DNA of 64,000 nucleotides from the human T2T-CHM13v2.0 reference genome, Homo sapiens. Of this stretch, positions 56,574-58,828 are shown one piece after another. The stretch is taken from the NCBI RefSeq assembly GCF_009914755.1, contig NC_060936.1; one strand, given 5' to 3'. The translations under genes and the position numbers were made by a program. The notes beneath the pieces were generated by a model. It was not told where the DNA came from. It was given only the letters and a program-made list of their open reading frames with translations, and did no database searches. The first letter of the stretch is position 1; the number at the start of each line of letters is the position of its first letter.

Positions 56574-56742
56574 CACACAGAACAGGGCACACATGCCAAT
56601 CTCCAAGACCGTTAGCCCCCTTGAGGTCACTTTATGGTCACCAGGACTACTGGGATCTGGTGACATCCCTTGAGTGGAGAAACTTGTGAAGGTATCTGGA
56701 CCACCACTTTTGAGTAGCTTATTATTTCCATCCATGGGAGGT
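56574..56742 (-). pseudogene. TMEM132B: TMEM132B pseudogene, terminal exon part 3 (ends in the TM helix)
   Basis: ORF track 56493..56882(-) contains [55 protein letters not shown], the TMEM132 juxtamembrane LEIGMYALL motif. Homology stops here. Confidence 0.9.
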
Positions 56743-57194
56743 TGTGGGGGTCCAACCTGCAGACCTTGACCCAGCAACAGATGAGAGACATACACTGACA
56801 CAGGTATTTTGCCTGTCAGTCCTGATAAGGGGCTCTGCTCTGAGTTTGCAGCATCACCTTGATAAGCCAGCAAAGTTTGCATTTATTTAGTACAGATTTA
56901 ATGACAAAGACTTTGAGTCAACACGCCTGTGGGTAATTAATCTTGTTACCCTCCCCTGGAGAGAGCAGTCCTATAGATGATCAAAGGTTTGTCTTAGGAC
57001 CACATGAATAAACAAGCTATTTAGATAAACCCCCTTTACATTCCTTTGTTATTTACCCTTGCTATTAGCTCAAAGACGATTAAGCTGCTTTCAGCCATAA
57101 TCTTTCCCCGAGGCTTTTGCAAAACCTTCTGGCCTTCTGAGAAGGTTTGTGTCTATTTTACAATTTCTCCCACCATCCTCACTGCATCCCCACA
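56743..57194 (-). mobile_element. Solo ERVK LTR, LTR22-like (HML-5)
   Basis: 452 bp with TG...CA ends. Minus strand starts TGTGGGGATGCAGTGAGGATGGTGGGAGAAAT...ATAGACACAAACCTTCT...GCTAATAGCAAGGGTAAATAACAAAGG. Degenerate 6-bp TSD ggaggt/ggagac. Splits the pseudo-exon between QS and PM. Confidence 0.8.
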
Positions 57195-57361
57195 GGAGAC
57201 TGGGGGGTTGTGCTTTTGTTGGTACTTTCCTCTTGGCCAACAGGTGTGCCTTGGTGGAACCATTCCTGGACTGGTCTCTCCTGGCTTCCTTCATGCTTTA
57301 CGGAACCAGTGAGTTGGTCTTTATATTCCCGATTTATGCTCTCTATATCATTCCCGCCTCT
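57195..57361 (-). pseudogene. TMEM132B: TMEM132B pseudogene, terminal exon part 2
   Basis: Translation [54 protein letters not shown] continues part 1 after a 65-bp insertion. Confidence 0.9.
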
Positions 57362-57426
57362 TTAAGAAAATTTCAATTAAAAAATGCTTACTGTCTACGT
57401 GTAAAAATAAGACAAAACAAAAATAT

Positions 57427-57706
57427 TTGGTGCTTATCACTACTTGGTTCAAATTTGACCTTGAAGTTTTCTTTACTCAGGGTAAGAACACTCCTCCTCT
57501 TGGTCTTCTGACAGGTTCACTAATCATCATGTCTAACTCAAGGGTCCTCTGCAATAAGAACCATTTGAGCTTAAGGTTTGAACCTGGATAGACACCACCA
57601 TGTCTTTCAATGATGAGACAATAAATGGAAAATCCTTGGAATCATAAATGTCTAAAGGTGTCACCAAACCATCACTGAACAAAGTTCAAGAACTTACTAT
57701 TGCTTC
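57427..57706 (-). pseudogene. TMEM132B: TMEM132B pseudogene, terminal exon part 1
   Basis: Acceptor ttttccttAG at 57707-57708 closes a 930-bp GT-AG intron. Translation [40 protein letters not shown], then frameshifted segments LDMMISEP / [29 protein letters not shown]>TGA at 57686-57688. Confidence 0.9.
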
Positions 57707-58636
57707 CTAAGGAAAATGAAACCAAAGTATTATGTTATAATCAGGTTCCTACAAATCAAAAATATAAAATGATTTATAATGAAATGTTCTCTGATTATAC
57801 AGTCTGAGAAAAATAGACATTTATATTTTATAATCTTGAACAGTTCTTGTTATTCCTTGAACTGGCATCAATAATGTGCTGTAGCCTCTCTGGTATGAGG
57901 AACAAATAATAGACTTTAATAAATGCATGAAAGTGTAAATTAATTTATTGCATGCGTACAACAGAATTTGACTTTGACCTTTTTAAAAACATTTATAAAG
58001 ATCAGGCAATTTATCTGAATCAATTTCAGGTGCAACTAATCAGGTGTTCAAGATAATATTACTTTGAATGCTCTTCATTAGGAAGCTGGTGCTGATGAAG
58101 CAAAACAGGCACTGGCAGGAAGGACACAGGAAGATGTATTATGAGGCTGGCTGGTCTGAATGGCACAGTGGCCCTGGTATCTTCAAAAATGATTTGTGCA
58201 AGTTTAAAGACGAGAGAGAGTTTCAGAGTTGACAATAATTGCTGTAAACAGTAGCAATTTAGTGTCTATTAGCCATGCTTGTTCAAGTAGCTGAAATGGA
58301 ATTTCTAAGCATTGCAAACCACCTGCTTTGGCAAAAGCAAAAACATGTGATCCTTTGGTCATGATCTAGCAGCAGGCTGTGCCTAGCACAGATAAGCCCA
58401 GGGCAAAGCAAATGGTGTATGGGGATACGGTCGGCGTGGAAAAGCACATAAGAGGAAATGTGTCTAAGCCACTGAATACTTTTCTCAGAGACAGAGCAGC
58501 CTGGATAAGAAGCAAGAAGCTTCAAGAATCCCCAGTCCTAGGCATGAGGGCTGTCCTGCTCTCCTTCGCAGGATGTGCTAACTGAGAGAGAAGTCATCTC
58601 CACTGACCAGGGATGCAGGGCCCCTGGAACGTTCAC

Positions 58637-58828
58637 CTGCTGTGGGGAATGAAGAACATCCAGGGCAGTGGCTGTGGAGACTATGGCCCTTTTGTCTGCT
58701 GGGTGAGGCTGCAGGGAGAGAGACATGCCAGCCATGAGCTGCACTCCCAGCTCTGCGATGGTGACTCAGTCATCCAGGACAATCACCGTCTTCTCAGCCA
58801 GGATGGAGTCCAAGAGTGGCAAGAAGAC
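58637..58828 (-). pseudogene. TMEM132B: Duplicated TMEM132B pseudo-exon (penultimate exon, 192 bp, phase 0/0)
   Basis: Minus strand reads tttcAG|GTC...CAG|GTgaac. The 64 codons translate [63 protein letters not shown], matching recalled TMEM132[65 protein letters not shown]. In-frame TGA at 58766-58768. Confidence 0.92.

What the first reader, a model, noticed from the sequence alone, without database searches (positions are those of the whole stretch)
56574..58828. Unprocessed partial duplicate of TMEM132B (last two exons plus intron), decayed and fragmented
Seen: a 192-bp phase-0 exon, a 930-bp GT-AG intron and a terminal exon in three pieces, with two in-frame TGA stops and frameshifts. 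Several changes look like CpG decay (R>TGA, S>L, V>M, A>T). The peptides match recalled TMEM132B-specific residues ([27 protein letters not shown]). The retained intron means a DNA-level duplication rather than a retrocopy, and no upstream exon was found in the remaining 5 kb. The ORF track exposes only fragments, so it could be unannotated. The intact splice sites could be reused by a lncRNA.
Basis: partly seen in the sequence, partly recalled or inferred. Interest (0 to 1): 0.8.

Follow-up and report, generated by a model that had tools for sequence, protein, structure and literature searches.

The report
Decayed TMEM132B pseudogene inside ancient duplication
This is a dead, broken copy of the last exons of the brain gene TMEM132B, already listed in RefSeq as a pseudogene, and it is one small piece of a very old, roughly 100-kb inverted duplication of that gene's tail end.

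Summary
Window 58828-58637 (-) is a 192-bp copy of TMEM132B exon 8 with AG/GT kept. A 930-bp copy of intron 8 follows, then the first ~210 of the 381 codons of exon 9 in three pieces. The parent lies 1.68 Mb proximal (chr12:125,660,865-125,662,617, +). Identity to it is 91% in exon 8, 87% in the intron and 87-90% in exon 9.

The copy is disabled by two TGA stops, five small indels, a 65-bp insertion, a 452-bp solo ERV LTR with a 6-bp target duplication, and a 3.1-kb deletion that removes the rest of the CDS. Pairwise dN/dS is 0.59 and the intron is no more diverged than exon 9, which fits neutral decay.

RefSeq already annotates it (LOC100420116), so it is not new.

Colinear inverted homology to the TMEM132B 3' region (65-90%) runs through nearly the whole window and beyond, at least 100 kb. 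Exon 7 was lost in a 2-kb deletion, and a well-kept exon 5 copy lies 19 kb past the window end. Two more old copies exist, at 126.87 and 127.65 Mb. The latter carries an intact exon 8 in a 97%-identical tract that looks like gene conversion.

No function is indicated.

The parts
58637..58828 (-). Copy of TMEM132B exon 8 (192 bp), with AG acceptor at 58830-58829 and GT donor at 58636-58635. It has one in-frame TGA at codon 21.
   Evidence: Translation. It is 175/192 identical to parent exon 8, G000:C12:125660865-125661056. Pfam Ig_TMEM132_6th, E=5e-8.
57707..58636 (-). Copy of TMEM132B intron 8 (930 bp; the parent intron is 932 bp).
   Evidence: Alignment. Identity 87.2% over 917 aligned sites, K2P 0.142.
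57428..57706 (-). Exon 9 copy, piece a (parent codons 1 to about 99). It has a TGA at codon 7 and five small indels.
   Evidence: Pfam Ig_TMEM132_6th, E=2e-8. Identity 86.6%.
57363..57427 (-). 65-bp AT-rich insertion, absent from the parent's open reading frame.
   Evidence: Alignment. The parent frame is continuous across this point.
57195..57362 (-). Exon 9 copy, piece b (parent codons about 101-155). Its last 6 bp, GTCTCC (57200-57195), are the 5' target-site copy.
   Evidence: Identity 89.8% over 167 sites. It matches the TMEM132B protein at residues 803-859, 74%.
56743..57194 (-). Solo LTR of an endogenous retrovirus (452 bp, TG...CA), in the same orientation as the pseudogene and absent from the parent.
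   Evidence: 37 of 43 genome-wide matches fall on this stretch alone (75-85% identity). Two family copies in the same orientation on chr9, with 4.3 kb between them, flank ORFs with Gag_p10 (E=2e-20) and integrase core (E=2e-6).
56737..56742 (-). 3' target-site copy, ACCTCC. It matches GTCTCC at 4 of 6 positions, and the two differences are transitions.
   Evidence: Read. The parent has a single GTCTCC followed by CATGG.
56575..56736 (-). Exon 9 copy, piece c (parent codons about 156-210). It ends inside the transmembrane segment.
   Evidence: Pfam TMEM132_C, weak (E=0.0065, below the cut-off). Protein match at residues 854-913, 70%.
55589..56540 (-). Homologue of parent sequence 2.6 kb past the stop codon. 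About 34 bp in the copy stand where 3.1 kb of the parent (125662617-125665739, codons 211-381 plus downstream) would be.
   Evidence: BLAST block, 74.5% over 968 bp.
58829..59170 (-). Copy of the last ~330 bp of intron 7.
   Evidence: Identity 78.3% over 327 sites.
59171..59326 (-). Deletion scar. About 157 bp stand in place of a 2.0-kb parent segment (125658521-125660534) that holds exon 7 (125659102-125659392).
59327..60689 (-). Copy of more distal intron 7 sequence (blocks 60217-59327 and 60689-60572), interrupted by the annotated RNU1-104P.
   Evidence: BLAST blocks at 78% and 77%. RNU1-104P is below the Rfam gathering score.
1..52352 (-). Further colinear blocks homologous to sequence downstream of TMEM132B. 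Examples: 52352-52041, 51295-50504, 50497-49293, 46269-45875, 44735-43894, 41305-40453, 29799-27893, 20283-19638.
   Evidence: Unique BLAST blocks at 64-90% identity, in inverted colinear order.

Best explanation
The stretch is a non-functional, unprocessed pseudogene fragment of TMEM132B, the one RefSeq calls LOC100420116.

Origin (shown): a large piece of chr12 was copied in inverted orientation to a site 1.68 Mb distal. The piece reached from at least intron 4/exon 5 of TMEM132B to tens of kb past its 3' end.

Since then the copy has decayed without coding constraint:
- CpG transitions and other substitutions, including two stop codons.
- Small indels.
- A 65-bp insertion.
- Insertion of a class-II-type ERV that later collapsed to a solo LTR.
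- A 2-kb deletion that removed exon 7.
- A 3.1-kb deletion that removed the last 171 codons and the stop.

Shown: homology, extent, lesions, and the LTR with its target duplication.

Inferred:
- Age. The copy-specific branch is about 0.11-0.13 substitutions per site. With recalled mammalian neutral rates this gives roughly 60-100 million years.
- Order of events.
- Absence of function.
For: - Parent and repeat. In the genome-wide DNA search, 3 of 43 matches tile the parent at chr12:125,660,865-125,662,617 (85-90%). 37 of 43 fall only on the inserted repeat.
- Intron and flanks. They are homologous at 78-87%.
- Large duplication. The inverted colinear chain between parent and copy regions has 35 blocks, 21,159 aligned bp, mean identity 75.3% and score 14,027. 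The wrong-orientation control chain has 17 blocks, 3,959 bp and score 3,452. The unique blocks are listed. The exon 5 block is 88% over 1,143 bp.
- Parent identity. Parent exon 9 is 98% identical to macaque TMEM132B.
- Paralogues. Five intact paralogues lie elsewhere.
- Lesions.
- Selection. dN/dS is 0.59 over 261 codons (Sd 29, Nd 62; dS 0.185, dN 0.110), as expected for one constrained and one neutral lineage. Intron K2P (0.142) is about equal to exon 9 K2P (0.15).
- LTR. Family copies flank gag and integrase ORFs.
- Annotation. No annotated transcript overlaps the region (hub table).
Against: - Identity to the parent is uneven: 92-95% across exon 8 and the first 300 bp of intron 8, against 62-72% only 300 bp upstream of the exon. 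The copy-specific branch is 5% in that intron stretch and 17% in the intron 7 stretch. This could mean later gene conversion, or some constraint on the copy, rather than uniform neutral decay.
- All three splice sites survive.
- Expression was not tested.
- Presence in other species was not tested, so the age rests on recalled rates.
Confidence: 0.93

Rival explanations
1. One reading: a small, local DNA duplication of only the last two exons and their intron (about 2.2 kb) inserted into unrelated sequence.
For: The recognisable coding homology inside the window is confined to 56575-58828 (4 of 45 protein matches lie in the window, all in this span).
Against: Non-coding homology to the parent region continues colinearly on both sides: upstream to window 60689 and beyond the window end, and downstream to the window start. 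An exon 5 copy lies at chr12:127,369,122-289.
Confidence: 0.02
2. The relic is exapted. Its preserved splice sites or its highly conserved core (exon 8 plus the 5' part of intron 8) serve a non-coding transcript or a regulatory element.
For: AG/GT/AG are all kept. The core is 92-95% identical to the parent. The copy-specific change in the first 302 intron 8 sites is only 15 (5%), against 41 of 235 (17%) in intron 7.
Against: No annotated exon overlaps (hub table). 16 of the 192 exon 8 sites carry copy-specific changes, including a stop. An LTR and deletions disrupt the unit. Patchy identity also occurs elsewhere in these duplicates and fits gene conversion.
Confidence: 0.05
3. It derives from another TMEM132 paralogue (C or D, which lie distal on chr12), or it is the functional locus with assembly errors.
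For: None found. The only argument is the closeness of TMEM132C, which starts about 1 Mb distal.
Against: The DNA search finds only the 125.66 Mb locus and its old copy at 127.65 Mb, not C or D. The locus at 125.66 Mb has an open 381-codon exon 9 that is 98% identical to macaque TMEM132B. The TMEM132B protein matches the window's exon 8 at 82%, but the C and D loci at 53% and 61%.
Confidence: 0.005

Closest known systems
LOC100420116, 'transmembrane protein 132B pseudogene' (RefSeq annotation of T2T-CHM13, from the hub table)
   Same: Same object: 56583..58831 (-) against my 56575..58828.
   Different: The annotation gives no exons. It does not show that the fragment belongs to a duplication of at least 100 kb, or that an exon 5 copy and two further old copies exist.
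TMEM132B, the parent gene (exons 8-9 at G000:C12:125,660,865-125,663,134)
   Same: Same exon/intron layout, with Ig_TMEM132_6th and TMEM132_C domain remnants. Identity is 87-91%.
   Different: The copy has stops, frameshifts, an LTR, no exon 7, no codons 211-381, and inverted orientation.
Unprocessed pseudogenes made by segmental duplication, with pseudogene/parent gene conversion (for example GBAP1/GBA1; recalled, not tested here)
   Same: Introns and flanks are retained, disabling mutations have accumulated, and there are patches of unusually high identity to the parent.
   Different: This one is far older and more diverged (65-90%) than the classic disease-relevant pairs, and lies 1.7 Mb from its parent.
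Solo LTRs of class II (betaretrovirus-like) endogenous retroviruses
   Same: TG...CA ends and a 6-bp target duplication. Family members flank Gag_p10 and integrase ORFs.
   Different: The family name could not be assigned because no repeat library was on hand. The target duplication matches at only 4 of 6 positions.

Membership tests
Unprocessed (duplicated) pseudogene of TMEM132B | The best genomic match is the TMEM132B locus and not another paralogue. | tested here: met
   (parent at E=0; no C/D/E/A match at the DNA level). (the parent is TMEM132B). (82% against 53-61%).
Unprocessed (duplicated) pseudogene of TMEM132B | The intron is retained and homologous to the parent intron, and homology continues into the flanks. 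| tested here: met
   (intron 87.2% over 917 sites). (flanks).
Unprocessed (duplicated) pseudogene of TMEM132B | Disabling lesions. | tested here: met
   Two TGA stops, five indels, a 65-bp insertion, an LTR, a 2-kb deletion and a 3.1-kb deletion.
Unprocessed (duplicated) pseudogene of TMEM132B | Relaxed coding constraint. | tested here: met
   Pairwise dN/dS 0.59 over 261 codons. Exon 9 K2P 0.15 is about equal to intron K2P 0.142. This is a pairwise value, so the copy's own branch was not isolated.
Unprocessed (duplicated) pseudogene of TMEM132B | Not transcribed or spliced into a functional product. | not testable with these tools
   No expression data are available. The hub table lists no overlapping transcript.
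Processed pseudogene (retrocopy) | Intronless, with a poly(A) tail and homology that ends at the mRNA borders. | tested here: not met
   The intron is present, and intron 7 and the downstream flank are homologous.
TMEM132 protein family (Pfam) | Matches to the family's domain models above the curated cut-off. | tested here: met
   Ig_TMEM132_6th scores 33.3 and 34.8 bits (cut-off 27.8) for the two fragments. TMEM132_C scores only 16.6 bits (cut-off 27). These are fragments, not a protein.
Solo ERV LTR | TG...CA termini, a short target duplication, a dispersed family, and members that bound retroviral genes. | tested here: met
   The target duplication matches at 4 of 6 positions.

The most novel reading that the evidence does not exclude
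The window copy is one of at least three relics (126.87, 127.34 and 127.65 Mb) of serial duplications of the 3' half of TMEM132B plus its downstream flank. These duplications are roughly as old as the placental mammals and built much of the 'gene desert' between TMEM132B and TMEM132C.

Three patches have stayed 90-97% identical to the parent:
- exon 5 and its flanks in this copy;
- exon 8 and its flanks in the 127.65 Mb copy;
- a 646-bp non-coding block at window 19638-20283, which overlaps a RefSeq silencer.

The novel reading is that these patches are retained because they still work, as duplicated regulatory or splicing elements, and not merely because of gene conversion.
Probability: 0.12. 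Interest if true: 0.45.

Novelty: already known. Interest (0 to 1): 0.14.

Why it matters
The pseudogene itself matters little: it is annotated and dead.

The wider picture has modest value:
- It shows that the TMEM132B-TMEM132C interval is partly built from very old, unlisted duplications of the TMEM132B tail. At 65-90% identity they fall below the usual 90% cut-off for segmental-duplication tracks (the cut-off is recalled).
- One sister copy carries an exon 8 that is 98% identical to the real one. This could matter for read mapping and for variant calls in TMEM132B exon 8.
- Duplicated non-coding blocks that stayed 90% alike are candidates for shared regulatory elements.

Tried and rejected
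- Rfam at gathering score found nothing in the window or in 10 kb of parent intron. RNU1-104P is too decayed to score, so the 65-bp, 92% match between it and parent intron 7 stays unexplained.
- A 13-bp 'target duplication' suggested by overlapping BLAST pieces was rejected. Other family copies carry the same CCCCACA..CCT end, so that stretch belongs to the LTR. The 6-bp reading fits better.
- I considered gene conversion as the cause of the window copy's 84-90% core. It is not needed: a constrained parent and a neutral copy give about that value. It is not excluded either.
The outer ends of the duplication were therefore not reached.
- Literature. 0 papers hold 'LOC100420116'. 13 hold TMEM132B plus 'pseudogene'; their titles and abstract starts, which are all I saw, concern unrelated topics. 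3 hold TMEM132B plus 'segmental duplication', likewise unrelated by listing. 0 hold B, C, D and 'tandem duplication' together. 3 GWAS papers hold LINC02375; I saw the listing only.
- In the TMEM132 family paper PMC6030884, the passages I searched hold no 'pseudogene' and no 'duplication'.

Full report
**What is at the coordinates**

Read on the minus strand, window 58828-58637 is a 192-bp open-phase exon. AG precedes it at 58830-58829 and GT follows at 58636-58635. Its translation carries one TGA.

A 930-bp intron follows, ending in AG at 57708-57707. From 57706 the frame reads EAIVSS*TLFSDG... and then breaks up.

Pfam places the pieces in the TMEM132 family:
- Ig_TMEM132_6th scores 33.3 and 34.8 bits for the two fragments (cut-off 27.8).
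- TMEM132_C gives a weak match in the last piece (16.6 bits, cut-off 27).

**The parent**

A DNA search of the window's own genome with 56574-58828 gave 43 matches:
- one is the query itself;
- three tile chr12:125,660,865-125,662,617 on the plus strand (85%, 90% and 86%);
- two lie at chr12:127.652-127.654 Mb;
- 37 fall only on query bases about 1632-2090, a dispersed repeat.

At the 125.66 Mb locus exon 8 is open. Exon 9 is an open 381-codon frame that ends in a stop.

That exon 9 is 98% identical to macaque TMEM132B. Among the 120 best relatives listed, every gene-specific name is TMEM132B; the rest are nameless or 'hypothetical'.

Pfam and protein searches of the genome find five intact paralogues:
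- chr12 at 125.66 Mb;
- chr12 at 128.73 Mb;
- chr12 at 129.11 Mb;
- chr17 at 35.58 Mb;
- chr11 at 60.89 Mb.

The TMEM132B protein matches the window's exon 8 at 82%. It matches the equivalent exons at 128.73 and 129.11 Mb at 53% and 61%.

**Anatomy of the copy against the parent**

| Segment | Identity | Detail |
|---|---|---|
| Exon 8 | 175/192 | K2P 0.095 |
| Intron 8 | 87.2% of 917 sites | K2P 0.142 |
| Exon 9, piece a | 86.6% | K2P 0.15 |
| Exon 9, piece b | 89.8% | K2P 0.11 |

The lesions are:
- CGA>TGA at exon 8 codon 21;
- TGG>TGA at exon 9 codon 7;
- five small indels in piece a;
- a 65-bp AT-rich insertion (57427-57363);
- a 452-bp insertion (57194-56743);
- loss of everything after about codon 210. 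The next homologous block (56540-55589) matches parent sequence 3.1 kb further on.

The last 330 bp of intron 7 are present (78%).

Parent exon 7 (125,659,102-392) sits in a 2.0-kb segment that the copy replaces with 157 bp (59327-59170). More distal intron 7 sequence resumes at 60217-59327 and at 60689-60572.

**The insertion is a solo LTR**

- It starts with TG and ends with CA.
- GTCTCC (57200-57195) and ACCTCC (56742-56737) flank it. The parent has a single GTCTCC before CATGG.
- Family copies align from 57184 to about 56749-56739.
- Two copies in the same orientation on chr9, with 4.3 kb between them, bound ORFs that hit Gag_p10 (E=2e-20) and the integrase core (E=2e-6).
- Those two LTRs differ by K2P 0.10. 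The window's LTR differs from each by 0.19.

I did not name the family because no repeat library was available.

**Mode of evolution**

Over 261 alignable codons there are 29 synonymous and 62 non-synonymous differences. This gives dS 0.185, dN 0.110 and dN/dS 0.59. That value is about what a constrained parent and a neutral copy would give together.

The intron is no more diverged than exon 9.

The A>T case is polarised by the third copy.

**The duplicate is much larger than the finding**

BLAST of 120 kb around the parent against 104 kb around the window gives a colinear inverted chain of 35 blocks (21,159 bp, mean identity 75.3%, score 14,027). The wrong-orientation control gives 17 blocks (3,959 bp, score 3,452). 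Alu-type matches are in both.

After dropping multi-copy hits, 35 of 493 hits remain. Most of them lie in inverted colinear order, from parent 125,629,977 / copy 127,360,009 down to parent 125,716,741 / copy 127,266,619, at 64-90% identity. Nearly the whole window therefore lies inside the duplicated region.

Further upstream, the parent's exon 5 region matches copy 127,370,000-127,368,874 at 88% over 1,143 bp, up to the edge of what I had fetched.

The exon 5 copy itself (found):
- differs at 5 of 141 bases;
- keeps its AG and GT;
- sits in flanks about 94% identical.

Exons 2-4 gave no match near the copy, but that search used a stricter first look and can miss weak matches.

Parent sequence from 125.692 to 125.717 Mb maps to two series in the copy region, so part of the copy was duplicated again.

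**Sister copies outside the window**

The copy at 127.625-127.69 Mb (plus strand):
- It is about 70% identical to the parent over unique colinear blocks. The chain evidence is weaker here: score 6,661 against a control of 4,556.
- It holds a 729-site tract around exon 8 with only 13 parent-specific and 12 copy-specific changes.
- In the next 51 sites it has 14 specific changes, so the tract has a sharp edge.
- Its exon 8 is open, differs at 3 of 192 bases and keeps AG/GT.
- I read this as interlocus gene conversion. The near-equal counts on the two branches argue against selection on one side only.

The copy at 126.873-126.879 Mb (plus strand):
- It keeps an exon 8 remnant, Alu insertions, intron 8, exon 9 with five stops, and 3' sequence, at about 75%.

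Order of the copies:
- On 495 columns shared by all four copies, the singleton changes are 79 (126.87 copy), 54 (127.65 copy), 30 (window copy) and 16 (parent).
- The grouping parent plus window copy has 16 supporting sites, against 6 and 9 for the alternatives.
- I infer that the window copy is the youngest of the three.

**Age**

From the distances, my arithmetic gives a window-copy branch of about 0.128 substitutions per site. The tract gives 72/729 copy-specific changes (9.9%).

With recalled neutral rates for the human lineage (about 1-2.2e-9 per site per year) this is roughly 60-100 million years. I could not test this estimate against other species.

**What stays unexplained**

Identity to the parent is patchy:
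- 92-95% across exon 8 and the first 300 bp of intron 8;
- 62-72% only 300 bp upstream of the exon;
- about 94% around exon 5;
- 90% over 646 bp at window 19638-20283, within a ~70% background. These are the only two copies of that block in the genome, and it overlaps the RefSeq silencer at 19810-19869.

Gene conversion, local constraint or rate variation could each explain this. I could not tell them apart without other species.

**Known or new**

The hub table lists LOC100420116, 'TMEM132B pseudogene', at 56583..58831 (-), so the object is already annotated.

The full-text searches found nothing on it or on duplications of TMEM132B:
- 0 papers for the LOC name;
- 13, 3 and 0 papers for the other term sets, all on unrelated topics by their listings.

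The family paper PMC6030884 holds neither 'pseudogene' nor 'duplication' in its main text.

**Verdict**

This is an ordinary, annotated, dead pseudogene fragment. Its scale was underestimated.

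Noticed in passing
window 19638-20283: A 646-bp non-coding block is 90% identical to parent-side sequence chr12:125,691,928-125,692,566, inside a ~70% background. These are the only two copies in the genome. The block overlaps the RefSeq silencer 19810-19869 and lies in a LINC02376 intron.
   Followed up: partly
G000:C12:127369122-127369289 (-), 19 kb beyond the window end (locus L029): Copy of TMEM132B exon 5. It differs at 5 of 141 bases, has an open frame, keeps AG/GT, and sits in flanks about 94% identical to the parent. 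That is far above the 66-78% of most of the duplication.
   Followed up: partly
G000:C12:127651789-127652573 (+), loci L003/L012/L013: An older TMEM132B 3' copy (~70% background) carries an intact exon 8 (3 of 192 differences) in a tract about 97% identical to the parent with a sharp 3' edge. It looks like gene conversion.
   Followed up: partly
G000:C12:126872977-126878623 (+), locus L034: A further decayed DNA-level copy of exon 8, intron 8, exon 9 and 3' sequence (~75%, five stops, Alu insertions). It holds an extra out-of-place 172-bp fragment of exon 9 at 126876570-126876741 (86%).
   Followed up: partly
window 60315-60379 and G000:C12:125658323-125658387: A 65-bp stretch inside the annotated RNU1-104P matches parent intron 7 at 92%, out of colinear order. 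Rfam at gathering score finds no U1 in either place.
   Followed up: partly
window 27893-29799 and 1-931; also 36657-36848 and 17847-18145: Parent sequence from 125.694 to 125.708 Mb maps to two separate series in the copy region. Part of the old duplicate seems to have been duplicated again.
   Followed up: no
L004/L005 (G000:C9:112534163-112542337): An ERV copy bounded by two LTRs of the same family as the window's solo LTR. It has Gag_p10 and integrase-core ORF remnants, and the LTR-LTR K2P is 0.10.
   Followed up: partly
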